Part shown: positions 12,642-30,715 of the stretch, piece after piece
Layout: each line of letters opens with the position of its first letter
How positions within the stretch are numbered: position 1 is the stretch's first letter
From: an uncultured delta proteobacterium
GTDB lineage: Bacteria; Myxococcota_A; Polyangia; Polyangiales; Houyiibacteriaceae
Direction of reading: 5' to 3'
Assembly (NCBI GenBank): GCA_963704865.1
Contig: CAVPIE010000014.1
Span: 69,937 to 133,936 of the forward strand
DNA: 64,000 bases
Translations under genes and position numbers: made by a program
The notes under the pieces: generated by a model
Database searches by the model: none
What the model was told of the DNA's origin: nothing
The model's input: the letters and a program-made list of their open reading frames with translations, nothing else

Positions 12642-13136
12642 TCAGGCTGAAGCAGCCCCGAACGGATTGGGCTTCCACATGCGAATGCCCAGCAGGAATG
12701 GAACGACCCAGTAAGGCCCGTTGAACGCCCAAAAGATCAACGGCTTGCCCGGGGGAGGTCCTATCCAGTATTCGTAGATCAGGAACTCGGTGCAGCCGTG
12801 CAACATCGCGCCGACGTAGACGAGCGCCATCGGCCGGATCCAGTTCTTCCCCTTGATGAACGCGTAGACGAGCACGAGATAGAACGGCCCGAAGATCATG
12901 CCGGAGATGCCGGTGTTGACCCGGACGAATTGGTGATCGCCCTCGAAGAAATGGTCCTGCGCGAGTTCGCCGTACCAGCGGTTTGCGGCAGGCCAGAATC
13001 CGTCCCCTTCGAGCAGTCCGAGCGCATGCCAGGAGTCCGAGAAGAACGACGAAAACGCAAAGAACGAAAAGCAGAGGACGAAAAAGATGTCTTGCTTGCG
13101 TAGGCTCAGCGGGAGACCGGTACCTGATTCACTCAT
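12642..13136 (-). CDS. EXPERA-domain membrane protein, TMEM97 (sigma-2 receptor)/EBP-like
   Basis: ORF trimmed to MSESGT (ATG 13136, 1 nt after the WS/DGAT stop). Four predicted TM helices. From memory of human TMEM97: YAFIKGKNWIRPMALVY resembles YAFLKGSCKWIRTPAIIY, RWYGELAQD resembles KWYAKEFKD, and NGPYWVVPFLL resembles YAPYLLIPFIL. Confidence 0.65.
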   Translation of the reverse strand: MSESGTGLPLSLRKQDIFFVLCFSFFAFSSFFSDSWHALGLLEGDGFWPAANRWYGELAQDHFFEGDHQFVRVNTGISGMIFGPFYLVLVYAFIKGKNWIRPMALVYVGAMLHGCTEFLIYEYWIGPPPGKPLIFWAFNGPYWVVPFLLGIRMWKPNPFGAASA

Positions 13137-13137
13137 C

Positions 13138-14580
13138 TCAACTCCGGGTGGGGATTGCAGTCGATTTCTGGCTGCTGCAGGCTCGTACCTGCGCGGCGGT
13201 GTGAAGCTCGCGAAATTGCTCGCCGACGCCCTCAACGATGTTGTGAACGTCTGGCAGCGCGTCCCAATCCGAGTTGAAGCCCCAGAAAACCTTGCCCGCG
13301 TAGCTGAGCACGGCGAGCGCGAGCGCCTGATTGGGAAAGAGCGGCATCATGGGATAGATCGCCTGCATCTCGGAGCCCAGGAAGTAGAGCGGCATGGACG
13401 GGCCAGGGACGTTGGTGACGACGACATTGAACGGTCGGTTTCGAGTGGCCGAGCGACTGAGCTGGGCGAAGAAGCGGCCACCGATTCGATCGGCAAGGCC
13501 CTCGAGCCAGGCCACTCCGAGTGCTTGCTTGCTGTGCTTGAGCTCCTGTGTGGTCTCAATGACACACTCCAGACGGGCCGCCGGGTCGCGCTCACCGACC
13601 GGCAGCCGGGCCATGATCATCGCAACCCGATTGCCGATGCCCTTCTCCGTGTCCTTCCGGACGTTGACTGGAATCAGCGTTCGGAAGTCGATGTCGTCCG
13701 TGCTGGTCGCATGCTCGCGGAGGTACCGTCCAAACGAGCCCGCAGCCGTGGTCAACACCACGTCGTTGATCGTCCCGCCGAGACCGGACCTCACCTCTTT
13801 GATCTCGCGCATCGAGACTTCGGTCCAGTCGAAACGGCGATGCGGGCCAACGCCATCGGGATTGAAAGGCGTCTTGGTCGCAGCCCGCCAGCCCAGCTTC
13901 GAGGCCTCCACGAGACCTTGGACGACATCGCGCGCCTCCTGCAATGCGGCGCTCGGCCGCCTGAGCGGCGCGAGGAGCTCAAACGGCGCTTGGATGCGGC
14001 GAACGAGCTCGGTTGCGAAGAGCTCCGTGCGCTGCGGCGCGGGACGGGGTTTCCATGGCTTCGGCCGGCCCTCGCGCTCGAAGGGACGGCGGCCCAGCAG
14101 AGTCTGGATGATGCTCACGCCCGAGATGCCGTCGGCCATGCAGTGATGGATCTTCGTGACCAGCGCAAACCTGTCGTTCTCGAGGCCGTCGACCACCCAG
14201 ACTTCCCAAGGCGGCTTGTCGATATCGAGCGGGAGCTCCAGCAAATACCCACAGACGCGTTTTAGGACGCGCTCATCGGCGGGTCGCGGGAGCGCGATTT
14301 GTCGAACGTGATAGCGCACGTTGAAGCTCTCGTCGTCGACCCAAATGGGATGGTCGAAGAGGGGAATCTTGACGAGTCGTTGGCGATAGCGTGGAACCCG
14401 GTCGAAACACCACTCGTAGTTGTGGACGATCTTTTCGAAATCGAGCCCACCGTTCTCGGTCCGTAGGGGGCCCGCGTCGAAGACCATGACCGCTGCTTCG
14501 TGCCAGCGCGTGTTCTGCTCCTCGAAACCGAGGAAGGAGGCATCCAAAGCGGAAAGGCGTTCGTAGAAGGTGTGCGACAT
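13138..14580 (-). CDS. wax ester synthase/diacylglycerol acyltransferase (WS/DGAT)
   Basis: ORF trimmed to MSHTFYERLSALDASFL (ATG 14580). Catalytic HHxxxDG motif (KIHHCMADGISG). Typical WS/DGAT C-terminal NVPGP motif (VVVTNVPGP). Confidence 0.9.
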   Translation of the reverse strand: MSHTFYERLSALDASFLGFEEQNTRWHEAAVMVFDAGPLRTENGGLDFEKIVHNYEWCFDRVPRYRQRLVKIPLFDHPIWVDDESFNVRYHVRQIALPRPADERVLKRVCGYLLELPLDIDKPPWEVWVVDGLENDRFALVTKIHHCMADGISGVSIIQTLLGRRPFEREGRPKPWKPRPAPQRTELFATELVRRIQAPFELLAPLRRPSAALQEARDVVQGLVEASKLGWRAATKTPFNPDGVGPHRRFDWTEVSMREIKEVRSGLGGTINDVVLTTAAGSFGRYLREHATSTDDIDFRTLIPVNVRKDTEKGIGNRVAMIMARLPVGERDPAARLECVIETTQELKHSKQALGVAWLEGLADRIGGRFFAQLSRSATRNRPFNVVVTNVPGPSMPLYFLGSEMQAIYPMMPLFPNQALALAVLSYAGKVFWGFNSDWDALPDVHNIVEGVGEQFRELHTAAQVRACSSQKSTAIPTRS

Positions 14581-14606: not shown

Positions 14607-15752
14607 CTACCCTTGGAAGGCTTTGACCGACAACCCCCTTTTGCGATTCGATCCCAGCACTTTGCGACGAAACTCCCGGATCACGGGAATCGGGTCGAGC
14701 CAAGCCGACGCATCCGCGCGATCGTTGTCGTGCTCACACAATTCCCCGGCAAACCCCTCTGGGATTTGACTGAAGTGCTCCGAGGCATCGGCGTCTTCGT
14801 CGAAGTAGTGATACTCGAAGCCCGGCACGAACAAGTCTTCGTCCGCAACGACATCGATGGTGCGAACCCCGAACGACGAGAGCTCGGTCGTCGTGGCCTG
14901 AGGGGGAATGATCCACACGTGCTTGGGGGCTGCCACAAACAGGTACTGCACCTTTCGGTTGCGCGAGAGGATGCGAAACCTCTGAAGGTTTCCGCCGTAC
15001 ATCGCACTCCTGAGCTCGCTGATCTCCAAGATGCCTTCTGCGAAGTCCGGCTCGAAGCCAGCAACGATCTCGAGCGAGGTTGGGTCGTTCTTCCGCGTGA
15101 ACCGAGCGATGCTGCGGCCGCCGTTGATGAGGTTCCGGCGATTGGCCGCGGCCTTGCGTCGGGGCTCGGCGAAATCTCGATACGGCCTTGTCCGCGAGCT
15201 CGGCGCGCTCCGGAGCAGAAGGTAGAGCGCTTCCTCGTCGTTTAGCGCGTGTCGCGTCCTGCGGTTGAGCGTTTCGAGCGCGGTTTGCATCTCAAAAGGC
15301 AGATCTGTGGTCGACTCGACGCACTCCGTGATTTCATAACCGCCGCGAGCCAGTACCTTGACGTCGCCTTTGCCGATCCAGAAATCACCATCGGTTGCGA
15401 TCACATGCGAGGCGGCGCGCCAGATCAGAGACAAGTCTTTGTAGAAGATGCGGGGAAAGATCTCCTCTCGGCCTGTCCTCGGGTGACGCTGCACGACGTA
15501 GGCTACGAAGAAACGCAGTGCGGGATTCTGCCGAACGTTCGTCAAAAAGAACCGAGTGTCGAAAAGCGAGATCTCATACTTGGGCGTGTACCCAGAAGAC
15601 AGGAGCCCGTTCGGGTCGTCTTTCGCTTCTCCTGCTGGACGTAGCTTCGCGCCTGAATCGAGAAGCTTGTGGAATTCCTGGGCCACTTGGCGAGGGGTCC
15701 GATCGGCGGGCCCGACGCTCGGCACGATGCGAGTGGGAATGGCTGCAGTCAT
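14607..15752 (-). CDS. conserved-looking hypothetical protein (381 aa), first gene of the WS/DGAT-EXPERA operon
   Basis: Long ORF with a clean ATG and no better-supported alternative in other frames. I recognise no domain. The acidic C-terminal part (EYHYFDEDADASEHF) and absence of TM segments suggest a cytoplasmic protein. Confidence 0.55.
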   Translation of the reverse strand: MTAAIPTRIVPSVGPADRTPRQVAQEFHKLLDSGAKLRPAGEAKDDPNGLLSSGYTPKYEISLFDTRFFLTNVRQNPALRFFVAYVVQRHPRTGREEIFPRIFYKDLSLIWRAASHVIATDGDFWIGKGDVKVLARGGYEITECVESTTDLPFEMQTALETLNRRTRHALNDEEALYLLLRSAPSSRTRPYRDFAEPRRKAAANRRNLINGGRSIARFTRKNDPTSLEIVAGFEPDFAEGILEISELRSAMYGGNLQRFRILSRNRKVQYLFVAAPKHVWIIPPQATTTELSSFGVRTIDVVADEDLFVPGFEYHYFDEDADASEHFSQIPEGFAGELCEHDNDRADASAWLDPIPVIREFRRKVLGSNRKRGLSVKAFQG

Positions 15753-15964: not shown

Positions 15965-16804
15965 ATGCGCGTGCTCACGAAAATATCGATGCTGCTGGTG
16001 CTCACGTTTGTGTTGGCGACCGGTTGCGGCGGCTCGGCGGAGGATGGCCCAGCTGGCAGCGGCGGCGCTGGGGGGAGCGCCGGTGGCAGCGGTTCGGGCG
16101 GAGACGGAGGCGCGGGCGGAGCCGTCGGCCCTCGGTTCTCACAGTTGGCGGCTTGGGGAGAGCACAGCTGCGGGCTCTTGCTGGACGGAAGCGCCCGGTG
16201 TTGGGGGTCCGATGCGCACGCGGATGTCGAGCCGCCAGCAAACAATACGTTCCGAGAGATCCATACCGCAAACGCGTACTCCTGCGGTGTCCTCGAGAAC
16301 CAGTCGGTCGCTTGTTGGGGCGAAAGCCAGGAGACCGCAGTTCCGGACGGAGAGTCGTTCGCGACCCTCGCGCTCGGCTTCGACCATGCCTGCGGTTTGC
16401 GTGCCAATGGCACGGTCCTTTGCTGGGGCGGCCAAACGAACGACGAGGAATGCGCAATCAATGAGTACAATTGCGGCCAAGGTCTGTCGCCCACTGGCAC
16501 ATTCATGCAGATCGCTGCGGGGCACTACAGCAATTGCGGACTGCGCGAAGGTGGGACGGTCGAATGCTGGGGCGCCGGCCGAACGGATGATTCCATTTCA
16601 CCGAATTGGGGCCAGGCTATTGCGCCCTCGGGGAGCTTTGTCAGTTTGTTCGCTGGAGTTTGGCACTATTGCGCGCTCGATGCTGCCGGCGAGGCGACCT
16701 GCTGGGGCGCGGGTACGCGGAACGTCTGTAGCGGTCCCAACTTGCACTGCGGCCAAGCGACCCCACCGGAGGGTCAAACCTTCAAGAACGTCGCGCTGGG
16801 CTGA
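15965..16804 (+). CDS. RCC1-like beta-propeller repeat lipoprotein, blades 1-5, ending at an in-frame TGA
   Basis: ORF trimmed to MRVLTKISMLLVLTFVLATGCGG (lipobox). Gly/Ser linker, then five repeats of the form ..H.CGL...G...CWG. Confidence 0.8.
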   Translation: MRVLTKISMLLVLTFVLATGCGGSAEDGPAGSGGAGGSAGGSGSGGDGGAGGAVGPRFSQLAAWGEHSCGLLLDGSARCWGSDAHADVEPPANNTFREIHTANAYSCGVLENQSVACWGESQETAVPDGESFATLALGFDHACGLRANGTVLCWGGQTNDEECAINEYNCGQGLSPTGTFMQIAAGHYSNCGLREGGTVECWGAGRTDDSISPNWGQAIAPSGSFVSLFAGVWHYCALDAAGEATCWGAGTRNVCSGPNLHCGQATPPEGQTFKNVALG

Positions 16805-17020
16805 CTTCATAGCTGCGGAATCCGCGCAGATGACAGCACGACTTGCTGGGGCCTCGATCGACTCGGTTCCGGCGATCTCGATCCACCTTCGGGAGAGGTC
16901 TTCGAACGGCTCACGGCCGGCCAAAATCATAGTTGCGGTCTTCGCGCCGACGGCGTCGGGATCTGCTGGGGCTACGTCCCTTGCGGAAGCGTCGGCGAAG
17001 AACCTTGCGGAACCCCGTGA
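16805..17020 (+). pseudogene. same-frame continuation of the RCC1-like gene (blades 6-7) beyond the TGA at 16802-16804
   Basis: Own translation directly after the TGA: LHSCGIRADDSTTCWGLDRLGSGDLDPPSGEVFERLTAGQNHSCGLRADGVGICWGYVPCGSVGEEPCGTP, stop at 17018-17020. This gives two more perfect H.CG...CWG repeats in the same frame. Confidence 0.7.
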
Positions 17021-17255
17021 CCGTCATCTGAAGGACCCTTCGATCATACACTTCGTGTTAGCCAGCGATGGGCATTCACCAGCTCGCAAACAAGAGCGCA
17101 GCGGAGAGGCAATTCGAAGGCTGAACAGCGATCCGGGGTTTGCAGCGAACCCTTTGCTCGCTCGGCCGTTTGGACGGTGCGCTACGAGTCCAAGGACACC
17201 CGCACGATCGGCTAGTTCTAGCGCGCAGGCGGGCGACGGCTCAAGATACGGGAAT

Positions 17256-18422
17256 ATGAACATGACCCGACCGATGTTGCGCTTCGTTGCTCAGTTCCTC
17301 CTCTCGCTGTGCTTCCTGATCACGAGCTGCGGCGGTGATGGCTGCGGCGCCGGAGGCTGCAGCGGCCCCGGCGGGCCGACCGACATCGATTTGGAGGTGG
17401 ACGACTTCATCGTCGGCCTCGAAAAGCCCTGGGACATCGCCTGGCTTCCCAACGGGACTGTCTTGGTGACCGAGCGGCCCGGCCGTCTGCATGTCTACGT
17501 CGATGGCGTCGGCGCCGCGCCCTTCGTCGTGGCACCAGACGACGTCGTGCCGCGGGGCGAAGGCGGCATGATGGGGCTCGAGGTCGACCCGGACTTCGCC
17601 AACAACGGCTACGTCTACGTTTGCACCACGTCAAACGCGGGCGGCGACAACGATGTTCGATTGCTGCGGCTCACATTGCGCACCCCCGACGGAGGCGCCG
17701 TGCTTGCGCGCGAGGACATCGTGACGGGGATGCCCTACAGCACGGGACGGCACAGTGGATGTCGGCCGCGCTTCGGGCCGGATGGTTTTCTGTGGATCGG
17801 CACTGGCGATGCGGCAATTGGGACGAACCCGCAAGATGACGACTCCCTTGGCGGAAAAGTGCTCCGCGTCGATCGGGAAGGTGCAGCCGCTCCCGACAAC
17901 GCTGGCGGGTTTCGATGGTACTCGAACGGGCATCGCAACATCCAAGGGATGGCATTTCGATCCGACGGAATCGGGATGTCGGCTGAGCACGGTCCGTCGA
18001 TTGACGACGAAATCAATCGGCTCGTCGCTGGCAACTTCGGCTGGGATCCGGTGCCAGGGTACAACGAGTCGGTGCCGATGACCGATCTAGAGAAGTTCCG
18101 AGCTGCGGTGCCCGCGGTCTGGTCGAGCGGCTCGCCCACCCTCGCGCTGGCGGGGGCGACGTTCCTCGAAGGCAGTGCCTGGGGCAACTGGGCTGGGGCC
18201 CTCGCGGTGGCCACTTTGAAGGCCGAGCACCTGCACATCTACTTCGTCGACGCCGAGGGCGAGGTGACCGGCGAAGAACGCGCCATCGATGACCAAGGCC
18301 GCCTCCGCACACCCCGGCAGGGCCCGGACGGCTTACTCTACATTACCAACGACGGCGGGAGCGGTGATGGCAAAGTCCTGCGCGTGAAACCGGTACCTGC
18401 GGCAAGCTCTGACGCACCGTGA
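17256..18422 (+). CDS. PQQ-dependent sugar dehydrogenase (soluble glucose/sorbosone dehydrogenase family) lipoprotein
   Basis: C-terminal 388 aa of ORF 15834..18422, starting at MNMTRPMLRF..LITSCGG (lipobox). GSDH motifs KPWDIAWLPNGTVLVTERPGRL, GGMMGLEVDPDF, GGKVLRV, NGHRNIQGMAF. Confidence 0.85.
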   Translation: MNMTRPMLRFVAQFLLSLCFLITSCGGDGCGAGGCSGPGGPTDIDLEVDDFIVGLEKPWDIAWLPNGTVLVTERPGRLHVYVDGVGAAPFVVAPDDVVPRGEGGMMGLEVDPDFANNGYVYVCTTSNAGGDNDVRLLRLTLRTPDGGAVLAREDIVTGMPYSTGRHSGCRPRFGPDGFLWIGTGDAAIGTNPQDDDSLGGKVLRVDREGAAAPDNAGGFRWYSNGHRNIQGMAFRSDGIGMSAEHGPSIDDEINRLVAGNFGWDPVPGYNESVPMTDLEKFRAAVPAVWSSGSPTLALAGATFLEGSAWGNWAGALAVATLKAEHLHIYFVDAEGEVTGEERAIDDQGRLRTPRQGPDGLLYITNDGGSGDGKVLRVKPVPAASSDAP

Positions 18423-19312
18423 GCGACGCCTACTACGCAATCGTCAACCGAACGGCGGCTGGCGGACGGTGCGCAAAAGCCGCACCGGAGGCCCTCGATG
18501 CATTGGAGCATCGCGGACTGTCGCTGAAGGTCGCGTTTACCGAGGAGCCGAAGCACGCGACTGAGCTCGCAAGGCGCGCAGCCAGTAACGGTTGTCGGCG
18601 TTTTCTTTCGGTCGGCGGTGATGGAACTGCCGCCGAGGTCGTCAACGGACTCATCGCCTCCGGCGTTGCTGGCGAATGCGCGCTGGCCATGCTTCCGCTC
18701 GGAACGGGCAACTCCTTTTTGCGCGACTTCGGTATCGCCGACCTTCAAGTCGCCGCCGATGCGATCGTTCGAGGCAAGAGCACCCCCATCGACGTGCTCC
18801 GCCTGACGCACGAAGACGGCGTCCTGCATTTCATCAATACGATGGGGACCGGTTTCGTCGCGCGCGCCGGCGAGCTCACCAACGAGCGCTTCAAATTTCT
18901 CGGTGCAGCGGGGTATGTTGCTGCAGTCCTGGTTTGCGTCGTGCGGCTCCGGTACGAAGAGAACACGCTTCGCTATGCGGGCGCGACCGATGAGGCGCGC
19001 ACGGTCCTCAGCTCGTTCTCCAACAGCCAGTACACGGGTGGTTCGATGCGGATGGCGCCGGATGCTCGAGTCGCCGACGGCCTGCTCGACGTCGTTCGGG
19101 CCGGGCCGCTCCGCAGAGCTGCCCTCGTGAGCGCGTTCGCCCGCATCTTTTCGGGAACGCACACCGATCTCGATCAGGTCTGGACGCGGCAAGTCGACCG
19201 GGTGGAATTCGTGAACCCCGCATTTCAAGCCGTGCTGATCGACGGCGACCTCTACCACCTGACGCCCCTTGCGATCGATGTCCTTCCTTCGGCAATCCAG
19301 CTCATCGCATGA
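18419..19312 (+). CDS. diacylglycerol-kinase-family lipid kinase (YegS/BmrU-like)
   Basis: GTG start overlaps the upstream stop (GTGA). GGDGT motif (SVGGDGTAAEVVNGL). LPLGTGNSF. Confidence 0.85.
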   Translation: MSDAYYAIVNRTAAGGRCAKAAPEALDALEHRGLSLKVAFTEEPKHATELARRAASNGCRRFLSVGGDGTAAEVVNGLIASGVAGECALAMLPLGTGNSFLRDFGIADLQVAADAIVRGKSTPIDVLRLTHEDGVLHFINTMGTGFVARAGELTNERFKFLGAAGYVAAVLVCVVRLRYEENTLRYAGATDEARTVLSSFSNSQYTGGSMRMAPDARVADGLLDVVRAGPLRRAALVSAFARIFSGTHTDLDQVWTRQVDRVEFVNPAFQAVLIDGDLYHLTPLAIDVLPSAIQLIA

Positions 19313-20055
19313 CGGAGACCACGACAGCTCGGGATCGAATCGTGAGCCTGTTCATCTGGGTTTTCGCCGGCGGCTTCCTGGTGCTGAGCCTGTCATTTTT
19401 GACGATCCTCTACCAGTTCGTGAAGCCGGACCGCGTTCAGCCCCTCGAACGCCTCTACTGCAAGCTCCAACTCGCACTCACGTTCAACCGGCAGCGCCAC
19501 GACGTGCATCCCGACGTCGACCCCGGCACCGCGTACATTTTCATTCAGAATCACAGCAGCCATCTCGATCACGTCGCGATGTACACGTCTACACCGCATT
19601 TCAAACAAGGCATCGAGCTCGAGAGCCACTTCGACTACCCCTTCTACGGCTGGTTCATGAAGGCGCGCGGAACCATTCCTGTTCCCAAGGATCGAGCAGG
19701 CGCACTCGACGCGCTCCGCGAGGCGGTTCATACCGAAGTCGATGCCGGGCATTCGATCCTCGGCTTTCCGGAGGGACACCGAACCAAGACCGGTCACGTG
19801 GGCCCCTTTTACGACGGCCTGTTTCGAATCGCGATCGAGCTCGGCGTGCCCATCGTGCCCGTCGCGGTGACAGGCCTTTTCGAAGTGCTTCACAAGGGCT
19901 CGCTCGTCATTCGCGCCGGCAACGAAATCAGCGTTTGCGTAGAAGAGCCGATTGCCACCGAAGGTCTCACCGAGCAGGACATCGCGAGCCTACGGGACCG
20001 AGTGCGGGACGCGATTGCAAGCAGGGTCGACGCGCATTTGGAGGCGCTCGCTTGA
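19309..20055 (+). CDS. plsC: 1-acyl-sn-glycerol-3-phosphate acyltransferase family (PlsC-like)
   Basis: ATGA overlap with the lipid kinase gene. HxxxxD box (NHSSHLDH) and FPEGHRT box. Confidence 0.85.
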   Translation: MTETTTARDRIVSLFIWVFAGGFLVLSLSFLTILYQFVKPDRVQPLERLYCKLQLALTFNRQRHDVHPDVDPGTAYIFIQNHSSHLDHVAMYTSTPHFKQGIELESHFDYPFYGWFMKARGTIPVPKDRAGALDALREAVHTEVDAGHSILGFPEGHRTKTGHVGPFYDGLFRIAIELGVPIVPVAVTGLFEVLHKGSLVIRAGNEISVCVEEPIATEGLTEQDIASLRDRVRDAIASRVDAHLEALA

Positions 20056-21666: not shown

Positions 21667-23268
21667 ATGTCGAATGTTGTATCGAAGGAAGGGCCACGCA
21701 GCCCGTTCCCAGTTGCCGATTTGAAGGCAGGTTTCTTAGTTTTCCTGATCGCCCTTCCCCTCTCCCTGGGGATCGCGATGGCCAGTGGATTCCCCCCGAT
21801 CGCGGGCGTTCTGACCGCGATCATCGGAGGGGTCATCGTCACGTTTCTCGGTAGCGCACGCCTGACGATCAAGGGGCCCGCGGCCGGACTCATCGTCATC
21901 GCATTGGGGGCGGTACAAGAGCTTGGGGGAGGAGATCCGATGCTCGGCTACCGTCGAGCCCTAGCGGTCGGGACGGTCGCCGCAGGCGTGCAAATTGCGT
22001 TCGCCCTCCTTGGCGCCGCCTCGATCGGCGTAGCGATGTCTCCCTCTGTGGTCCACGGCATGTTGGCCGCCATCGGTGTGATCATCATCTCGAAGCAAGT
22101 GCACACCCTGTTGGGCGTAGCGCCGGAGGCCAAGGAACCATTGGAGTTGCTCGCCGAAATTCCGAAGAGCATCGCGCATGCCAATCCCGAGATACTGATC
22201 CTTGGTGCTCTCTCGCTACTCATCCTTTTTGGATGGCCTCTGATTCGGACGCGATGGGCAAAAGCCATCCCGGCTCCGGTGCTGGTCCTCGCGGTGGCAG
22301 TGCCACTGAGCTTGTGGCTCAATTTGGACCACTCGCACGCCTATCAGTTTCTATCGCACCAGTTCCACGTTGGGCCGGAGTTCCTGGTGCAACTACCGGG
22401 CTCGCTCCTCGACGCGTTCGTATTCCCGGATTTTTCGATGGTGTTCAGTGCCGCGTCCCTGAAATACGTAGTGATGTTCGCCCTGGTCGGAACGATCGAG
22501 TCGACCTTGAGCGTGCTCGCAGTCGACTCGATGGACCCGGAGAAGCGCCCGTCGAATCTGAATCGTGATCTCCTGGCTCTTTCTTTGGGGAACCTCTGTT
22601 CGTCTCTGGTCGGCGGGCTTCCGATGATTTCCGAGATCGTTCGAAGCAAAGCGAACGTCGATGCTGGCGCGCAGTCCCGATGGGCGAACTTTTTTCATGG
22701 CGCATTTCTGCTGACATTCGTCGCTCTGGCTCCCGGCTTGCTGCACGAAATTCCGCTCGCGGCCTTGGCGGCAATGCTGGTCTACACCGGCGCACGACTC
22801 GCATCACCCCGTGAGCTGTGGCACGTCAAACAGATCGGTCTGGATCAGCTCGCCCTCTTCGTCACTACACTCATCATCACTCTCGCGACCGACCTTCTAA
22901 TTGGCGTCGCAGCCGGCCTCGTGCTCAAGGTCATTTTGCACCGCGTCCGCGGGGCGACTTTCAGCCAGATCTTCCGTGCGCGCGTCGAGAAGAGTCAGCA
23001 AGGCTCCGAATTGCGCTTGACGCTGCACGGTGCAGCGGCTTTCACGAGCCTCATCTCGGTCAGGAAGTCCCTCGCGGATCTCGATCCTTCCTGCCGGAAA
23101 GTGGTGATCGATGTGAGCGACGCCGCGATCGTTGACCATACGTTCTTGAGTCGCCTCGAGGGTCTATCCAACGAGTGGCCGAATGTGGAATTGGAGGTGG
23201 TGGGGATCGAGGCACTGACGCCGCATTCGCCGCATCCGCACTCAACCCGTCGAAGGACCGCTTCATGA
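21667..23268 (+). CDS. SulP-family anion transporter with C-terminal STAS domain (sulfate/bicarbonate permease type)
   Basis: Typical SulP N-terminus (DLKAGFLVFLIALPLSLGIAMASGFPPIAGVLTAIIGG), about 10-12 TM helices, STAS-like tail (ELRLTLHGAAAFTSLISVRKSL..VVIDVSDAAIVDHTFL). The stop overlaps the dabA ATG. Confidence 0.9.
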   Translation: MSNVVSKEGPRSPFPVADLKAGFLVFLIALPLSLGIAMASGFPPIAGVLTAIIGGVIVTFLGSARLTIKGPAAGLIVIALGAVQELGGGDPMLGYRRALAVGTVAAGVQIAFALLGAASIGVAMSPSVVHGMLAAIGVIIISKQVHTLLGVAPEAKEPLELLAEIPKSIAHANPEILILGALSLLILFGWPLIRTRWAKAIPAPVLVLAVAVPLSLWLNLDHSHAYQFLSHQFHVGPEFLVQLPGSLLDAFVFPDFSMVFSAASLKYVVMFALVGTIESTLSVLAVDSMDPEKRPSNLNRDLLALSLGNLCSSLVGGLPMISEIVRSKANVDAGAQSRWANFFHGAFLLTFVALAPGLLHEIPLAALAAMLVYTGARLASPRELWHVKQIGLDQLALFVTTLIITLATDLLIGVAAGLVLKVILHRVRGATFSQIFRARVEKSQQGSELRLTLHGAAAFTSLISVRKSLADLDPSCRKVVIDVSDAAIVDHTFLSRLEGLSNEWPNVELEVVGIEALTPHSPHPHSTRRRTAS

Positions 23269-26246
23269 CCTCCGTTGCAAGCGAGTCTCTCAGCCTGTCC
23301 AGCTCGAAATCGACTGCGAACGCGACGCTTGGTGAGCTGCTCGACCACGCAGCGGACCTGCTTCCTCAGCAGTCTCCGCTGCATATGTTCGTTCATCACA
23401 ACACCTTGCATGCCTTTGAGCACCTTCACTTCGAAGAAGCCGTCGTCGAGGCCGCTGCGCGCTTCGGTACCGAGCCTTACCAGTCCGAAGCAGCCTTCGA
23501 CGAGTGCATCGAGTCGGCGAGAATTCGTTCGGCCGACATTGAAAACGTAGTCAACGCGTCCATCGAGGACTCAGGAGGCCCTGTGATAGCCGGAGGGCCG
23601 ACGCGACGGGAGATGCGGGCCATACGTCTGAGCAATCTCTTCGAGATCCCACAGGGTCCTGCGCTCAACTGGATGCTCGAAGAGACGGGGACGCTGTTTC
23701 GCTTCCACCGTCGCGTGCCGGAGTCGGCCCGGGCTGCGATCCTACAGTCCGCCGAGCGTGTCTCCCTCGGCGGGAACTCCAGCACGCCAGAGGCGCGTGA
23801 AGAGCAGGCCCTCGAGCAGATCTGGAGGGAGCTGCTCGCCGTCGCTCCGACCTCCCCCCGCGCCCGCACCGGCATCAGGCGGCGCGACCAGATCCTCGAA
23901 GTCTGCGGCATTGATACCGATCACTTCGTCCACCCCCTTCTGATTCGTGTCTGCGCCGCTTTCGTCGATCAGGGGATCGCGTATTGGGAGATGCCGGGAC
24001 GAGATGCGGGTTTGCTCGAAGTCTTCCGCTCTCTCTACGGAATCGGGTCGGGTCCTTCCGATCGCTGGATGGAAGGGCTTTCAAAGCAGCTGAGACTCCA
24101 GCAAAGCGAGCGATGGGACGCAGACCGGACGGTGCGCTGGGCACTGGAAGAGCTCGATGTCCCCCACGCGCAATGGGCTGGGTACATCGAAGAGACCCTG
24201 TTGTCGCTTCCAGGTTGGGCGGGCATGATTCGGCAGCTGGAGCTGCGTCCCGACACGGCGCCCGTCGACCCTCCCCGCGCCCGACTCCTCGACTACCTCG
24301 CGCTGCAGCTCAGCCTCGACCTGCACGCCGCTCGCTTCGTCATTCGAACACGGGCTGGTGGGCCGGACGCGTTCGCTGAGATGCTATCGCTTCGGACGGA
24401 CGCCAAACGAGAGAGCGACCTCGATCTCGAGCTCGTCTACGAAGGCTTCATCACGGCCCAGCTCGCCGGACTCGGGCCGGCGGAGCTTGGAGGACGGGAA
24501 GCAGCGAAGCGCTGGCTCGAAGAGGTCGGCGGATTCGATTCGAACGAACGGCGCCGGCTCTTGCACCTCGCGTATGAAAGAAGGCACCGCATCGGGGTGC
24601 TCGACGGAATCGTGGGTCACTGCCGATTCAAACGCAGGCAAGCGGCACAACCTCGCTTTCAAGCCGTATTCTGTATCGACGATCGCGAGGAGTCGCTTCG
24701 CAGGCACCTCGAAGAGATTCGGCCGGACGTCGAGACCTTCGGATACGCGGGCTTCTTTGGCATCGCGATGGCGTATCAGGGCATCGAGGACATTCGTCCG
24801 AGGCCGCTATGCCCTGTGGCCGTTCTCCCAAGCCACTACGTCAGGGAACGCGCCCTCGACGAGGGCGAAGCTGCCGTGTTTGCCGAGAAGCGTCGCAGAC
24901 GAGGACAAATGACTCACTCGATCGGACTCGGAAGCAGAATGCTGACCCGCGGCGGGGTCCTCTCTGCCTTGTTCGGATTCTTGGCGATCATCCCACTTCT
25001 TGGGAGGAGCCTGTTTCCTCGCGCCACGGAGCGTCTAGCGCACAGGATCTCGCACAGGACAGCACCCATGCCTCCGACGCGCTTGTGCCTCGAACGCGCT
25101 CCAGGCGAGCGACCCGACGGGCTCGCGTTGGGCTACACGATCGATGAAATGGCGGATGTCGTGTCCGGAGCACTTACGACGATGGGGATGGCGGGACAGT
25201 TGTCGTCGCTGGTCCTGATCGTCGGGCATGGCTCCTCGAGTCTCAACAACCCTCACGAAGCGGCACACGACTGCGGTGCGACGGGTGGGGGACGCGGGGG
25301 CCCCAACGCGCGTGCCTTCGCTGAGATGGCCAATGAACCACGGGTTCGAGAACGGCTTCGAAGCAGAGGACTCGTCATCCCTGATTCGACCTGGTTCGTC
25401 GGCGCATATCACAACACCTGCGACGACTCGATGACGTACTACGAAGAAGATCGGGTCCCGGCAGAGTCGCTGGAGGCGCTGGCGGACGCGAAGCGCGCGT
25501 TTGCAGACGCCTGCCGACTTGATGCGCACGAGCGCTGTCGCCGTTTCGAGTCAGCGCCCCTGGGTCTGGATCCCGAGGCAGCGCTGGCACACGCCGAGGC
25601 GCACGCCTACGATCTCGCGCAGCCAAGGCCCGAGTATGGGCATGCAACCAACGCCGTTTGCATCGTGGGCCGCCGAGCACGGACACGTGGGTTGTTTCTA
25701 GATCGGCGGGCCTTTCTCGTGTCGTATGATCCCGAGAGCGACTCGACCGGGGCGATTCTGGCTCAGCTCCTTCGCTCGGTTGGACCGGTCGGCGCCGGGA
25801 TCAACCTGGAATATTACTTCAGCTTCGTCGATCCCACGGGCTACGGTTGCGGGACCAAGCTTCCCCACAACATCGTCGGGCTCGTCGGTGTGATGGATGG
25901 GCACGCATCGGACTTGAGAACGGGTCTTCCTTGGCAAATGGTGGAGATCCACGAGCCGGTTCGGCTACTCACGATTGTCGAGGCGGAAACCGAGGAGTTG
26001 GTGCGCATTCTCGAACGCGACTCGGCACTTGCGAACTTGGTGAACAACGAGTGGATCCAACTGGTCGCTTGGGACCCAAGAAGCGACGCCTTGGCGGTCT
26101 ACGAGAATCGGCGATTTCAGCCGTATGTTCCGGAAAATCCCGCCATCGCCGTAGTTGGCCGTTCCGTCGACTTCTACTCCGGCCGGCGAGGGCATTTGAG
26201 CCCGGCCCACGTCAAGGCCGGGTTGCTCGAATACGGTGCGGCATGA
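23265..26246 (+). CDS. dabA: DabA (DUF2309/PF10070) beta-carbonic-anhydrase-like subunit of a DAB inorganic-carbon pump
   Basis: ORF trimmed to MTSVASES (ATG 23265, ATGA overlap with sulP). DUF2309 hallmark SPLHMFVHHNTLHAFE. CxDxR-type site FCIDDRE and GHGSSSLNNPHEAAHDCGATGG. Confidence 0.85.
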   Translation: MTSVASESLSLSSSKSTANATLGELLDHAADLLPQQSPLHMFVHHNTLHAFEHLHFEEAVVEAAARFGTEPYQSEAAFDECIESARIRSADIENVVNASIEDSGGPVIAGGPTRREMRAIRLSNLFEIPQGPALNWMLEETGTLFRFHRRVPESARAAILQSAERVSLGGNSSTPEAREEQALEQIWRELLAVAPTSPRARTGIRRRDQILEVCGIDTDHFVHPLLIRVCAAFVDQGIAYWEMPGRDAGLLEVFRSLYGIGSGPSDRWMEGLSKQLRLQQSERWDADRTVRWALEELDVPHAQWAGYIEETLLSLPGWAGMIRQLELRPDTAPVDPPRARLLDYLALQLSLDLHAARFVIRTRAGGPDAFAEMLSLRTDAKRESDLDLELVYEGFITAQLAGLGPAELGGREAAKRWLEEVGGFDSNERRRLLHLAYERRHRIGVLDGIVGHCRFKRRQAAQPRFQAVFCIDDREESLRRHLEEIRPDVETFGYAGFFGIAMAYQGIEDIRPRPLCPVAVLPSHYVRERALDEGEAAVFAEKRRRRGQMTHSIGLGSRMLTRGGVLSALFGFLAIIPLLGRSLFPRATERLAHRISHRTAPMPPTRLCLERAPGERPDGLALGYTIDEMADVVSGALTTMGMAGQLSSLVLIVGHGSSSLNNPHEAAHDCGATGGGRGGPNARAFAEMANEPRVRERLRSRGLVIPDSTWFVGAYHNTCDDSMTYYEEDRVPAESLEALADAKRAFADACRLDAHERCRRFESAPLGLDPEAALAHAEAHAYDLAQPRPEYGHATNAVCIVGRRARTRGLFLDRRAFLVSYDPESDSTGAILAQLLRSVGPVGAGINLEYYFSFVDPTGYGCGTKLPHNIVGLVGVMDGHASDLRTGLPWQMVEIHEPVRLLTIVEAETEELVRILERDSALANLVNNEWIQLVAWDPRSDALAVYENRRFQPYVPENPAIAVVGRSVDFYSGRRGHLSPAHVKAGLLEYGAA

Positions 26247-27610
26247 TGGAAACGCTTGTCGATGGCTTGGTGATTGGCATCGTAGGCTTTCCGGTGCTCG
26301 CCGTCTTCGTGCTCGGCTTGCGGGCCTGGCTCGATCGAGCGTGGAGCGAGCGAGCGACCGTCACGATCGTAGGTTTGGCGTTCAGCGCTTCCCTAGCCTC
26401 ATCTACGCTGACTGCGGGATGGCTTCTGCTGCGCGATTTCGCGGAAGTCCGCGTGCACTTGGGCAGCTGGTTCTCTGCCAAACACTATTCGTTCGATTGG
26501 AGTCTCGTCGCCGATCATCTGTCGATCCCGTTTGCAATCTTCTCGGCTGCTTTGCTCGGCCTGGTCGCGGCATTCTCGCGGAGGTATTTGCACCGCGAGC
26601 CGGGTTTCTCACGGTTCTACCTGCTGCTGACCATTTTTGGCGCTGCGGTCGAGTTCGTCGTCCTCGCGGGAAGCCTGGACTTGGCCTTTATCGGATGGGA
26701 GCTCGTCGGCCTGACGTCAGCTCTCTTGATCGCGTTCTTCCACGAGAGGCGCGCGCCGGTCGAGCACGGCCTCCGTGCCTTCGTCACCTATCGGCTCTGT
26801 GATATCGGTTTGCTCTCCGCCGCCGTTGCACTTCACCAGATGGTCGGTACCTCCGATGTCGTACCTTCCCCGACGGGTCCATGGGCGAGCTTCGTCGTTC
26901 CGGACACCGTGCTCGGGGCGACCGTGGTCGGCTTGCTCCTTCTCTGGGCGTCGATGGGCAAAGCGGCCCAAGTGCCCCTGTCGGGATGGCTGCCCCGTGC
27001 GATGGAAGGTCCCACTCCTTCGAGCGCCGTCTTTTATGGGGCGCTCTCCATTCATCTCGGGCCCTATCTCCTGCTTCGCGCCACATCGATTCTCGAGTTC
27101 TCCGGGGTCGCAGCGGGCTCGGTAGTCGCCGTGGGAGCGCTCACGGCGCTGCACGCGACGTTCGTGGGCCGCACGCAAAGCGACATCAAAAGCGCCCTCG
27201 CATACGCGTCGATGACCCAAGTTGGGCTGATCTACGTGGAGATCGGCCTTGGCTTCTACCACCTCGCCGTGGCCCATATCGTCGGCCATGCCGCCATTCG
27301 AACGCTCCAGATCCTCCGTTCGCCGAGTCTCCTTCACGACTACCATCATCTCGAACAAGCGATGGGAAAGCAGCTCCCCCGAACCGGCGGACATCTCGAA
27401 CGCCTAGTGCCGACGGCACTGCAGCCCTGGCTCTATCGCGTCGCTCTAGAGCGCGGGGGCTTCGACGCTTTTCTCAAAGACCACGTCATTGGGCGAGCGC
27501 TAGCCGTGCTCTCGTGGCTGGATCGACTGGACCGGGCCTGGGTTGACTATCTCACGAAACCAACACCGGCCAAGAAGTCACGTCAGCAGCGGGACGAGGT
27601 GACGTCATGA
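26243..27610 (+). CDS. dabB: DabB, NuoL/MrpA-like proton-conducting membrane subunit (PF00361)
   Basis: ORF trimmed to MMETLVDG (ATG 26243, ATGA overlap with dabA). GWELVGLTSALLIAFF and PLSGWLPRAMEGPTPSSAVFYGAL motifs of NuoL/MrpA-type subunits. Confidence 0.85.
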   Translation: MMETLVDGLVIGIVGFPVLAVFVLGLRAWLDRAWSERATVTIVGLAFSASLASSTLTAGWLLLRDFAEVRVHLGSWFSAKHYSFDWSLVADHLSIPFAIFSAALLGLVAAFSRRYLHREPGFSRFYLLLTIFGAAVEFVVLAGSLDLAFIGWELVGLTSALLIAFFHERRAPVEHGLRAFVTYRLCDIGLLSAAVALHQMVGTSDVVPSPTGPWASFVVPDTVLGATVVGLLLLWASMGKAAQVPLSGWLPRAMEGPTPSSAVFYGALSIHLGPYLLLRATSILEFSGVAAGSVVAVGALTALHATFVGRTQSDIKSALAYASMTQVGLIYVEIGLGFYHLAVAHIVGHAAIRTLQILRSPSLLHDYHHLEQAMGKQLPRTGGHLERLVPTALQPWLYRVALERGGFDAFLKDHVIGRALAVLSWLDRLDRAWVDYLTKPTPAKKSRQQRDEVTS

Positions 27611-28992: not shown

Positions 28993-29860
28993 ACACGCGC
29001 TGAAACATCGCGGCGTCGCCGCTTGCCGGCTTGCGCTGGTCTTTTTTGTCACCCGACTCTGGGTAGAGCTGGTATGCGGCGTTCAGGATGCGATCGACGG
29101 CATTCGGCGCCACCCCATAGGCGAATTCGAATAGATTTCCGACAGGGGTGGCCACCCGTTTTGGCTGACGGACGATGCCGTCCGCCACTAGGTCGGCAGC
29201 TTCTTGGGCGCTCCGCATCGGAAACGAGTCGTAGATCGTCGTCGATTTCATCATCGGCGTCTTGACCAACGGCATGTAGATCGTCGTGACCTTGACCCCG
29301 TCCTTCAGCGCTTCGACTGCCAGGACTCGGCTAAATGCGTCGAGTGCCGCTTTGCTCGCGATGTAAGCGCCGTAGCGCGGAACGTTCACCTGGACCCCGA
29401 TCGTCGACACGTTGAGGATCTGCCCGCTCTTCTGTGCGCGCATACCCGGAAGAAATCCCATGATGAGACGCACCGCGCCCAAGAAATTGAGAGCGAGCGT
29501 CCGCTCGAAGTCGTGCACCCGATCGTAGGACTTGGCGACACTTCGGCGAATCGAAATTCCTGCATTGTTGACGAGGATGTCGACTTGGCCGTGGTCAGCA
29601 AGAATGGCGGCGATCAGACGCTCGGTGTCCTCGGCGTTCGATAAGTCGCCAGGATACGCGAATGCCGTTCCGCCGCGCCCCTCGATGCTCTTCTTCATAT
29701 CTTCGAGCTTGTCGGCGGATCGGGCGACGAGCAGGACCTTTGCCCCGGCGTCCCCCAATCGATTGGCCAGCGCTTCCCCAATCCCGCTCGAAGCGCCGGT
29801 GATCGCGACGGCACGGCCGGAAACCCGTTCGCGCAAGGCGCTATCTTCGGAGTCGGTCAC
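28943..29860 (-). CDS. short-chain dehydrogenase/reductase (SDR), classical family with C-terminal extension
   Basis: C-terminal 305 aa of ORF 28943..30376, with a GTG at 29860 (or a TTG at 29836). ITGASSGIGEAL, NNAG, YGAYIASKAAL (YxxxK). The 3' end overlaps the convergent 27607..28992 gene by 50 nt. Confidence 0.8.
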   Translation of the reverse strand: MTDSEDSALRERVSGRAVAITGASSGIGEALANRLGDAGAKVLLVARSADKLEDMKKSIEGRGGTAFAYPGDLSNAEDTERLIAAILADHGQVDILVNNAGISIRRSVAKSYDRVHDFERTLALNFLGAVRLIMGFLPGMRAQKSGQILNVSTIGVQVNVPRYGAYIASKAALDAFSRVLAVEALKDGVKVTTIYMPLVKTPMMKSTTIYDSFPMRSAQEAADLVADGIVRQPKRVATPVGNLFEFAYGVAPNAVDRILNAAYQLYPESGDKKDQRKPASGDAAMFQRVFKAVARRARRRASGRR

Positions 29861-30629: not shown

Positions 30630-30715
30630 CGGAGGATTGTAGGGGAAGAAGGGTCCTATGCGTCAACCCACTTGCTTGTGTCGATCCGCCAGCACAATTT
30701 TCCAATAGGCGGCGC

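What the first reader, a model, noticed from the sequence alone, without database searches (positions are those of the whole stretch)
12642..14580. Bacterial TMEM97 (sigma-2 receptor)/EBP-type EXPERA protein translationally adjacent to a WS/DGAT acyltransferase
Seen in sequence:
- A 164-aa four-TM protein starts 1 nt after the WS/DGAT stop.
- It carries segments I recall from human TMEM97. YAFIKGKNWIRPMALVY resembles YAFLKGSCKWIRTPAIIY, RWYGELAQD resembles KWYAKEFKD, and PYWVVPFLL resembles PYLLIPFIL.
- The WS/DGAT has the HHCMADG active site.

Established knowledge: EXPERA proteins (EBP, TMEM97, TM6SF) are sterol isomerases or sterol-binding proteins, mostly eukaryotic. WS/DGAT enzymes esterify alcohols, and in some cases other hydroxylated lipids, with acyl-CoA. 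Some myxobacteria make sterols.

Inference: this may be a coupled pair that binds or isomerises a polycyclic or long-chain lipid alcohol and then esterifies it, giving steryl-ester- or wax-ester-like storage lipid.
Basis: partly seen in the sequence, partly recalled or inferred. Interest (0 to 1): 0.7.

Follow-up and report, generated by a model that had tools for sequence, protein, structure and literature searches.

The report
Bacterial TMEM97-like protein behind wax-ester synthase
A myxobacterial genome encodes a real relative of the human sigma-2 receptor/TMEM97 (a sterol-related membrane protein) directly behind a wax-ester/triacylglycerol synthase gene, but this pairing occurs in only one small lineage, so the two are probably co-expressed rather than an obligate two-step lipid pathway.

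Summary
A 164-aa ORF (12642-13136, minus strand) starts 1 nt after the stop of a 480-aa WS/DGAT (13138-14580). It is a genuine EXPERA protein:
- Pfam PF05241 scores 42 bits against a cut-off of 25.7.
- A family profile hits sigma-2/TMEM97 at E 5e-11.
- The AlphaFold model (pLDDT 89) matches only sigma-2 and EBP structures, with TM-score up to 0.76.
- Both acidic residues that mark the superfamily are kept (D34, D61). EBP's catalytic His76 and Glu122 are not (S30, T75).

- WS/DGAT sits next to the EXPERA gene in 13 of 80 related loci. These lie at one tip of the EXPERA tree, where the whole gene block is syntenic.
- EXPERA orthologues up to 91% identical have unrelated neighbours.
- The 64-kb window has no sterol, hopanoid or fatty-alcohol-reductase gene.
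- The rest of the genome could not be checked.

A sterol-type link does exist for distant family members (35-41% identical). They lie inside cyanobacterial sterol clusters, next to ERG4/ERG24 reductases in Leptospirales, or next to or fused with DUF1295 reductases.

Verdict: an uncharacterised but already annotated bacterial TMEM97-like family, here in a lineage-specific operon with WS/DGAT. Moderate interest.

The parts
12642..13136 (-). 164-aa, four-helix TMEM97-like EXPERA membrane protein
   Evidence: PF05241 at 42.1 bits, above the 25.7 cut-off. The family profile hits sigma-2 7m93 at E 4.7e-11, TM6SF1 at 5.5e-9 and EBP at 0.016. AlphaFold pLDDT 89.2, pTM 0.83. The 12 best Foldseek matches in the PDB are all EBP or sigma-2, with TM-score up to 0.76. 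dN/dS is 0.06-0.12.
13134..13145 (-). Coupling junction: GGAG (13145-13142), WS/DGAT stop TGA (13140-13138), one spacer base, EXPERA ATG (13136-13134)
   Evidence: Read directly from the sequence. The string GGAGTTGA[G/A]ATG is invariant in all 13 WS/DGAT-linked loci, while the DNA upstream of it varies.
13138..14580 (-). 480-aa WS/DGAT-family O-acyltransferase, with the HHCMADG motif at 14128-14148
   Evidence: PF03007 and PF06974. TIGR02946 at 377 bits against a 310 cut-off. Best solved relatives are 7nxg (O-acyltransferase WSD, E 1.9e-43) and 6chj (E 3.4e-38). Motif position.
14607..15752 (-). 381-aa conserved protein of unknown function (called UP381 here), 26 nt upstream of WS/DGAT on the same strand; probably the first gene of the block
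   Evidence: No Pfam or NCBIfam hit. 1843 homologues, with every name shown among the 120 listed being 'hypothetical'. AlphaFold pTM 0.81 with no PDB fold match. It is adjacent in the 12 WS/DGAT-linked loci that extend that far, and lies 1-4 kb from EXPERA in 6 further loci.

Best explanation
The 164-aa gene encodes a real member of a bacterial TMEM97/sigma-2-like branch of the EXPERA superfamily. It is a small four-helix membrane protein with a membrane-embedded pocket carrying two conserved carboxylates (D34, D61).

By homology and by the company its relatives keep, it most likely binds a sterol-like or other polycyclic or unsaturated isoprenoid lipid. It might also shift a double bond in such a lipid.

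It is a stand-alone gene whose family does not depend on WS/DGAT. In one Polyangiales lineage, a local rearrangement placed UP381 and a WS/DGAT directly upstream of it. This created a co-directional UP381-WS/DGAT-EXPERA block with a stop-1 nt-start junction and an in-frame Shine-Dalgarno motif. In this lineage the acyltransferase and the EXPERA protein are therefore probably transcribed and translated together.

Shown: family membership, fold, conserved residues, junction anatomy, and the distribution of neighbours. Inferred: the kind of ligand, co-expression, and any hand-over of a lipid alcohol to the acyltransferase.
For: Membership and fold.

Conserved residues across 77 homologues:
- R13, D16, D61, F85, Y86, P141 and P146 are invariant.
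- D34 is present in 73 of 77.
- D61 aligns with TMEM97 D56 and EBP D108. D34 aligns with EBP E80. The D34-D61 spacing of 27 residues equals the D29-D56 spacing in TMEM97 (sequence from my memory).
- EBP positions 80 and 108 are named the conserved acidic positions of the superfamily in PMC4263179. [quoted passage not shown]

Sterol-type associations of relatives:
- The Rivularia and Calothrix homologues (about 41% identical) lie inside a cluster with SQS, ERG24, SE-OSC, ERG2, Rieske, a geranylgeranyl-reductase-like (GGR) flavoprotein, 3beta-HSD and CYP51 genes.
- ERG4_ERG24 (430 bits) is directly adjacent in 4 Leptospirales/Spirochaetota loci.
- EXPERA, DUF1295 and SDR genes lie in a row in a Bacteroidales locus. 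DUF1295-EXPERA fusion proteins also exist.

The WS/DGAT link is lineage-specific:
- Adjacency occurs in only 13 of 80 loci, at one tip of the tree.
- Sister loci have GSDH divergent from EXPERA, with UP381 located downstream.
- Orthologues 84-91% identical have a LysR regulator, an isocitrate-dehydrogenase-like gene (judged from sequence only), a P450 or ribosomal genes as neighbours.

The junction is invariant in all 13 linked loci despite dS of 0.6-1.2.
Against: - No ligand or activity has been shown for any bacterial member.
- The window holds no sterol gene, and the genome-wide test failed.
- Most Polyangiales contexts say nothing about lipids.
- Three other bacterial SE-OSC sterol clusters that I sampled lack an EXPERA gene, so the sterol link is not general.
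- The alignment that maps D34 and S30 onto EBP is weak (E 0.016).
- The homologues from the Rivularia/Calothrix sterol clusters, E. salina (a known sterol producer) and one unclassified MAG (L080) carry Asp at residue 78, the position of TMEM97 E73. The window clade has Ser there, which may mean a different ligand.
- Retention of the exact junction over dS of about 1 could reflect real functional coupling, which this explanation plays down.
Confidence: 0.55

Rival explanations
1. Coupled two-step module. The EXPERA protein binds or isomerises a sterol-like or long-chain lipid alcohol in the membrane, and the translationally coupled WS/DGAT esterifies it with acyl-CoA. The product would be steryl-ester- or wax-ester-type storage lipid.
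For: - The junction is stop-1 nt-start with an SD motif, and it is invariant in 13 loci over dS 0.6-1.2.
- WS/DGAT enzymes are known to be promiscuous towards alcohols (my own knowledge).
- Distant EXPERA relatives lie in sterol clusters.
- Conjugated sterols of unknown nature are reported in the myxobacterium E. salina (PMC10202945).
Against: - The pair is absent from 67 of 80 loci, including EXPERA proteins 84-91% identical.
- In the linked clade the whole block is syntenic, including a convergent helicase, so adjacency carries little extra information.
- There is no sterol or fatty-alcohol-forming gene in 64 kb.
- In E. salina, base hydrolysis of the lipid extract, which cleaves esters, released no additional sterols.
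Confidence: 0.15
2. A catalytic Delta8-Delta7 sterol isomerase of the EBP type, serving a sterol pathway encoded elsewhere in the genome.
For: - EXPERA fold, with acidic residues at the EBP E80 and D108 positions.
- Y142 sits at the EBP W196 position.
- The order Polyangiales includes cholesterol producers (PMC12004948).
Against: - EBP His76 and Glu122 align with S30 and T75.
- The profile scores TMEM97 far above EBP: 46 against 18 bits.
- The C-8 isomerases that Lee et al. list for bacterial sterol producers were found by BLAST with the E. salina and Calothrix genes. The Calothrix rhizosoleniae one is ERG2-type by gene order, and the E. salina one is 51% identical to the Calothrix enzyme.
- No sterol genes in the window.
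Confidence: 0.1
3. The ligand is not a sterol. The protein handles another unsaturated membrane lipid (fatty-acyl or ether lipid, oxylipin, carotenoid). In this case the WS/DGAT context reflects general acyl, ether or neutral-lipid metabolism.
For: - A lipoxygenase-EXPERA fusion exists.
- A CYP97/CYP102-like P450, not a CYP51, lies divergent from EXPERA in 5 Polyangiales loci.
- An FAD-linked oxidase resembling alkyl-DHAP synthase (AGPS; resemblance judged by me, Pfam gives only FAD_binding_4 and FAD-oxidase_C) plus an SDR lie near the block in L003 and L008 and are present in the window.
- DAG-kinase-like and PlsC genes lie nearby.
- Family members occur in bacterial groups not known to make sterols, such as Bacteroidales, Leptospirales and Mycobacterium (their sterol status is my own knowledge).
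Against: - Every characterised EXPERA protein is sterol-related.
- The strongest recurrent partners (ERG4/ERG24, DUF1295/steroid-5alpha-reductase-like, a full sterol cluster) point to steroid-type chemistry.
- The lipid genes near the window locus are not conserved neighbours.
Confidence: 0.2

Closest known systems
TMEM97 / sigma-2 receptor (MAC30), EXPERA superfamily
   Same: - Similar size (164 against 176 aa) and four transmembrane helices.
- Best sequence match of the family profile (E 4.7e-11) and best structural match (TM-score 0.76, rmsd 2.9 A over 160 columns).
- The shared motifs WY..D, YAF.KG..WIR.PA..Y and PY...P..L.
- Both ligand-binding aspartates are kept (D29 and D56 correspond to D34 and D61).
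- Y142 sits at the Tyr150 position.
   Different: - Only about 19-25% identical.
- TMEM97 Glu73 is Ser78 here.
- The bacterial family has its own invariant residues (R13, D16, E122).
- No C-terminal lysine-rich ER-retention tail.
- Bacterial host, with no NPC1, LDLR or PGRMC1 partners.
- Function has not been tested.
EBP (emopamil-binding protein, Delta8-Delta7 sterol isomerase)
   Same: - Same EXPERA fold (Foldseek TM-score 0.67).
- Acidic residues at positions E80 and D108.
- An aromatic residue at the W196 position.
   Different: - Weak sequence match (E 0.016).
- EBP has an extra N-terminal helix.
- Catalytic His76 and Glu122 are replaced by Ser30 and Thr75.
EXPERA gene of the Calothrix/Rivularia sterol biosynthesis cluster (cluster described in PMC10202945)
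   Same: - Same bacterial family (40-41% identical, same length).
- Shares invariant R13, D16, D61, E122 and Y142.
   Different: - The cyanobacterial gene sits between SdmA-like Rieske and GGR-like reductase genes, inside a complete sterol cluster that also has an ERG2-type isomerase.
- It has Ser34 and Asp78 where the window protein has Asp34 and Ser78.
- The window gene has no sterol neighbours.
WS/DGAT (AtfA-type wax ester synthase / diacylglycerol acyltransferase)
   Same: The upstream gene has both WS/DGAT domains, the HHxxxDG motif, and passes the TIGR02946 cut-off.
   Different: No WS/DGAT is known to work with an EXPERA partner. This adjacency is restricted to one Polyangiales lineage.

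Membership tests
EXPERA superfamily (PF05241) | Significant match to the family HMM | tested here: met
   42.1 bits against a gathering cut-off of 25.7, E 1.2e-10, covering profile positions 6-113. 76 of 78 homologues listed at E <= 0.001 include most with a precomputed PF05241 hit.
EXPERA superfamily (PF05241) | Core of four transmembrane helices with the sigma-2/EBP fold | tested here: met
   AlphaFold pLDDT 89.2, with helices at 16-38, 69-95, 98-125 and 132-152. The top 12 Foldseek PDB hits are all EBP or sigma-2, probability 1.00, TM-score up to 0.76.
EXPERA superfamily (PF05241) | Conserved acidic residues at EBP positions 80 and 108 (TMEM97 D29 and D56) | tested here: met
   D61 aligns with TMEM97 D56 and EBP D108 and is invariant in 77 of 77 homologues. 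D34 aligns with EBP E80 (weak alignment) at the same 27-residue spacing as in TMEM97, and is present in 73 of 77.
EBP-type Delta8-Delta7 sterol isomerase | Catalytic His76 and Glu122 (alanine-scan essentials) | tested here: not met
   They align with Ser30 and Thr75 (alignment E 0.016). Ser30 is present in 75 of 77 family members.
EBP-type Delta8-Delta7 sterol isomerase | Isomerase activity on Delta8 sterols | not testable with these tools
   Needs yeast erg2 complementation or an enzyme assay.
TMEM97 / sigma-2 receptor | Asp29 and Asp56 (ligand recognition), plus Glu73 which bonds to Asp29 | tested here: inconclusive
   The two Asp positions are met (D34, D61). The Glu73 position is Ser78 here, and is Asp only in the cyanobacterial, E. 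salina and L080 homologues.
TMEM97 / sigma-2 receptor | Binding of sigma-2 ligands or sterols | not testable with these tools
   Needs a binding assay.
WS/DGAT acyltransferase (upstream gene) | Catalytic and C-terminal WS/DGAT domains plus the HHxxxDG motif | tested here: met
   PF03007 at 209.7 bits, PF06974 at 115.8 bits, TIGR02946 at 377 bits (cut-off 310). HHCMADG at residues 145-151.
Functionally coupled gene pair (conserved neighbourhood) | Adjacency retained across divergent members of the family | tested here: not met
   13 of 80 loci, all at one tip of the tree with full block synteny. No WS/DGAT lies within 10 kb in the other 67.
Operon with translational coupling | Same strand, overlapping or near-overlapping stop and start, SD motif within the upstream ORF | tested here: met
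   TGA-g-ATG with GGAG 5 nt upstream of the ATG. Invariant in 13 loci. No internal promoter-like site and no convincing terminator. Transcription itself was not tested.
Bacterial sterol biosynthesis locus | Presence of OSC, squalene epoxidase, CYP51, ERG24 or SdmAB near the gene or elsewhere in the genome | tested here: not met
   No hit in the 64-kb window at E < 1e-6, and none by Pfam on about 40 window proteins. Genome-wide presence could not be tested: an OSC homologue search could not be tied to this MAG.

The most novel reading that the evidence does not exclude
The UP381-WS/DGAT-EXPERA block is a bacterial module for esterifying sterols or other polycyclic alcohols. The TMEM97-like protein would capture the lipid alcohol in the membrane and present it to the co-translated acyltransferase. 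This would be the first bacterial steryl-ester synthesis system and the first biochemical role for a TMEM97-type protein.
Probability: 0.08. Interest if true: 0.8.

Novelty: new member of a known kind. Interest (0 to 1): 0.4.

Why it matters
What TMEM97/sigma-2 actually does biochemically is still unclear, even though it is a drug target. I found no paper on bacterial homologues in the held library; they exist only as automatic annotations.

This work shows that a coherent bacterial TMEM97-like family exists, found in at least 279 species genomes. The pocket carboxylates are conserved. In some lineages the family is tied to sterol clusters or to ERG24/DUF1295-type reductases by adjacency or fusion. 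Simple bacterial systems of that kind could make the function of the fold testable.

The specific WS/DGAT pairing in this window is a lineage-specific arrangement. It would matter only if co-expression turns out to change the ester products. Sterol esters have, to the knowledge of Lee et al. 2023, been found only in eukaryotes.

Tried and rejected
1. Tying a sterol pathway to this organism. A homologue search with an OSC domain gave 1856 hits, of which only 120 were listed. None lay on a contig of this MAG's known sizes, so the result is inconclusive.

2. The P450 next to EXPERA in five Polyangiales loci. I suspected CYP51, but its best solved relatives are CYP97 carotenoid hydroxylases and CYP102/CYP4 fatty-acid hydroxylases, so it is not evidence for sterols.

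3. UP381 as a clue to the pathway. It has no Pfam or NCBIfam hit, no named homologue and no PDB fold match. Its co-occurrence with EXPERA in six further loci is explained by regional synteny.

4. A neutral-ceramidase gene seen in the near-identical contig L081. It is absent from the window, so a sphingolipid reading was dropped.

5. Direct phmmer of the single sequence against PDB sequences found nothing. The family profile was needed.

6. Sequence alignment of TM1 to TMEM97 failed in both HMMER and hhalign. The D34/D29 equivalence therefore rests on the EBP alignment and on residue spacing.

7. The promoter and terminator scan of the block was uninformative.

8. Three other bacterial SE-OSC clusters were checked for an EXPERA gene. 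None had one.
Full report
**Observation**

On the minus strand, a 164-aa ORF (ATG 13136-13134, stop 12644-12642) begins one base after the TGA (13140-13138) of a 480-aa ORF that starts at 14580. A GGAG motif lies at 13145-13142, five bases upstream of the ATG.

The upstream protein is a WS/DGAT. It scores 209.7 bits on PF03007, 115.8 bits on PF06974, and 377 bits on TIGR02946 against a cut-off of 310. The HHCMADG motif is at residues 145-151. Its closest solved relatives are the WS/DGAT structures 7nxg and 6chj.

The 164-aa protein passes Pfam's EXPERA model (PF05241, 42.1 bits, cut-off 25.7). The finding's coordinates and every sequence-level statement in it are correct.

**Is it really an EXPERA/TMEM97-type protein?**

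Yes.
- A single-sequence search of PDB sequences found nothing. A profile built from 32 homologues hit bovine sigma-2/TMEM97 (E 4.7e-11), TM6SF1 (5.5e-9) and EBP (0.016).
- An AlphaFold model built on that alignment is confident (pLDDT 89.2, pTM 0.83) and shows four long helices.
- The 12 best Foldseek matches in the PDB are all EBP or sigma-2 chains, with TM-score up to 0.76. The next hits drop to about 0.37.
- Among 77 homologues, R13, D16, D61, F85, Y86, P141 and P146 are invariant. E122, Y142 and N139 are nearly so.
- D61 is the counterpart of TMEM97 D56 and EBP D108. D34 (73 of 77) aligns with EBP E80, and lies 27 residues before D61, as D29 does before D56 in TMEM97.
- EBP positions 80 and 108 are the conserved acidic positions of the superfamily (PMC4263179). 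[quoted passage not shown]
- EBP's catalytic His76 and Glu122 align with Ser30 and Thr75, and TMEM97 Glu73 aligns with Ser78. The protein therefore resembles TMEM97 more than the isomerase EBP. TMEM97 itself is not thought to be an isomerase (PMC10093856).
- dN/dS of 0.06-0.12 shows the gene is constrained.

**Origin and family**

The window is 96-99% identical to contig CAVOVB010000001.1 of an uncultured "delta proteobacterium" MAG. Its relatives are labelled Polyangiales, Sandaracinaceae or Polyangiaceae.

Relatives of the protein are encoded in 279 of the species-representative genomes. Most are Myxococcota MAGs. Others include Enhygromyxa salina, Archangium, Leptospirales, Bacteroidales, Calothrix/Rivularia and a Mycobacterium MAG.

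An exhaustive profile search found 331 clusters (at 50% identity) with E <= 1e-10.

Database pipelines already name such proteins "EXPERA domain-containing", "DUF2781" or "emopamil-binding family protein". I found no paper dealing with bacterial members.

**Is the WS/DGAT pairing conserved?**

Only locally.
- WS/DGAT lies next to EXPERA in 13 of 80 loci (L001-L012 and L015). In these, the block GSDH / UP381 / WS/DGAT / EXPERA / convergent DEAD-box helicase is syntenic wherever the contig extends far enough. No WS/DGAT lies within 10 kb in the other 67 loci.
- The 13 loci sit at one tip of the EXPERA tree. In the low-resolution NJ tree, the smallest clade holding all of them also contains 10 unlinked loci. 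EXPERA proteins up to 91% identical have quite different neighbours.
- Those neighbours include a LysR regulator, an isocitrate-dehydrogenase-like gene (judged from sequence only), a lipoprotein, a divergent P450, and in one group a position between rpsP and rimM-trmD.
- In sister loci (L028, L033, L034), GSDH is directly divergent from EXPERA and UP381 lies 3-4 kb downstream. The simplest history is a rearrangement that put UP381 and a WS/DGAT between GSDH and EXPERA.
- Within the linked clade, the junction GGAGTTGA[G/A]ATG is invariant while flanking DNA varies and dS reaches 0.6-1.2. This fits selection for coupled expression.
- UP381 ends 26 nt before the WS/DGAT start, and no promoter-like site lies inside the block. 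A three-gene transcript is therefore plausible but untested.

**Is there a sterol connection?**

Not in this window. tblastn with the twelve proteins of a cyanobacterial sterol cluster found nothing at E < 1e-6. Pfam scans of about 40 window proteins found no cyclase, squalene enzyme or fatty acyl reductase.

Lipid-related genes in the window are:
- a DAG-kinase-like gene and a PlsC acyltransferase (18419-20055);
- an FAD-linked oxidase resembling alkyl-DHAP synthase (AGPS; my reading, since Pfam gives only FAD_binding_4 and FAD-oxidase_C) with an SDR (28943-32890);
- acyl-CoA dehydrogenases, FabH and a CDP-alcohol phosphatidyltransferase.

Whether the genome has OSC elsewhere could not be established.

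At the family level there are real links:
- In Rivularia sp. MS3 and Calothrix rhizosoleniae, the 40-41% identical homologue lies inside a cluster with SQS, ERG24, an SE-OSC fusion, ERG2, a Rieske oxygenase, a GGR-like reductase, 3beta-HSD, CYP51 and a second Rieske gene. This type of cluster was described for Calothrix by Lee et al. 2023. They assign C-8 isomerisation to a gene that, by its position next to SE-OSC, is the ERG2-type one. The EXPERA gene is left unassigned.
- In four Leptospirales/Spirochaetota loci, an ERG4/ERG24-family reductase (430 bits) is the immediate neighbour.
- In a Bacteroidales locus, EXPERA is followed by a DUF1295 (steroid-5alpha-reductase-like) gene and an SDR.
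- DUF1295-EXPERA fusion proteins exist, including one in Emiliania huxleyi.

Against a general rule, three other bacterial SE-OSC clusters have no EXPERA gene within 10 kb. The homologues from the Rivularia/Calothrix clusters, E. salina and the unclassified MAG L080 also differ from the window clade at residue 78, with Asp instead of Ser.

**Best reading**

This is a stand-alone, strongly conserved TMEM97-like membrane protein. Its acidic pocket most likely accommodates a sterol-like or other polycyclic or unsaturated isoprenoid lipid.

In this lineage it has become the last gene of a UP381-WS/DGAT-EXPERA block and is probably co-expressed with the acyltransferase. I put about 0.55 on that statement as a whole.

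My estimates for the alternatives:
- About 0.15 that the two proteins form a true bind-or-isomerise-then-esterify pair.
- About 0.1 that it is a bona fide Delta8-Delta7 isomerase.
- About 0.2 that its lipid is not sterol-like at all. Pointers in that direction are a lipoxygenase fusion, CYP97/CYP102-like P450 neighbours, ether-lipid genes nearby, and members in bacterial groups not known to make sterols.

**Novelty**

This is a new, uncharacterised member of a known superfamily, in a lineage-specific operon arrangement. It is not a new kind of system.

The more interesting leads lie outside the window. They are the co-occurrence of sigma-1-like (ERG2) and sigma-2-like (EXPERA) genes in one cyanobacterial sterol cluster, the ERG24/DUF1295 partnerships, and a tandem double-EXPERA protein in a Heimdallarchaeota MAG.

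Noticed in passing
window 14607-15752 (-): UP381 is a 381-aa protein directly upstream of WS/DGAT. It belongs to a large family (1843 homologues at E <= 0.001) in which every name shown among the 120 listed is 'hypothetical'. It has no Pfam or NCBIfam match. The AlphaFold model is confident (pTM 0.81) and beta-rich, with no structural match in the PDB (best TM-score 0.12).
   Followed up: partly
L087 2904-15235 (Rivularia sp. MS3); L061 (Calothrix rhizosoleniae SC01): These cyanobacterial sterol clusters carry both an ERG2/sigma-1-receptor-type gene and a TMEM97/sigma-2-type EXPERA gene. Lee et al. 2023 assign C-8 isomerisation to the ERG2-type gene and give the EXPERA gene no role.
   Followed up: partly
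L059 8730-10573; L062; L063; L065: In Leptospirales/Spirochaetota MAGs, an ERG4/ERG24-family reductase (430 bits) is the immediate neighbour of the EXPERA gene. The pair is conserved in groups not known to make sterols.
   Followed up: partly
P0369, P0452, P0457 (Emiliania huxleyi XP_005760328.1); L073 1381-3958: Fusion proteins join DUF1295 (steroid-5alpha-reductase-like) to EXPERA. A Bacteroidales locus has EXPERA, DUF1295 and SDR genes in a row. This links the fold repeatedly to membrane double-bond reductases.
   Followed up: partly
P0352 (719 aa, metagenome): A fusion of an N-terminal EXPERA domain with a lipoxygenase domain, named arachidonate 15-lipoxygenase by JGI. Organism unknown.
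   Followed up: no
P0331 (TFG08474.1, Candidatus Heimdallarchaeota archaeon): A 368-aa Asgard-archaeal protein with two EXPERA domains in tandem, the same architecture as eukaryotic TM6SF1/2.
   Followed up: no
window 28943-32890 (-): An FAD-linked oxidase resembling alkyl-DHAP synthase (FAD_binding_4 + FAD-oxidase_C; the AGPS resemblance is my reading) with an SDR, suggestive of ether-lipid synthesis. In L003 and L008 this pair sits directly beside the GSDH-UP381-WS/DGAT-EXPERA block. In the window it is about 16 kb away.
   Followed up: partly
L001 and L015 (contigs CAVOVB010000001.1 and CAVOVB010000007.1): The same MAG holds two copies of the whole UP381-WS/DGAT-EXPERA-helicase block at 83-87% protein identity. 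This is either a large duplication or a bin that mixes two related populations.
   Followed up: no
L081 5335-6366, compared with window about 16290-17290: The near-identical reference contig has a neutral-ceramidase-like gene (PF04734/PF17048) between GSDH and UP381. The window lacks it, so the two genomes differ by an indel here.
   Followed up: partly
L018, L022, L025, L029, L032 (about 8.5-9.9 kb in L018): A cytochrome P450 is transcribed divergently from EXPERA in five Polyangiales loci. It is closest to CYP97 carotenoid hydroxylases and CYP102/CYP4 fatty-acid hydroxylases, not to CYP51.
   Followed up: partly
window 23175-28992 (+): A DabA-type inorganic-carbon transporter subunit (PF10070, 810 bits), with a proton-antiporter-like membrane subunit about 1.4 kb downstream. 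Together they look like a DAB CO2-uptake pair.
   Followed up: no
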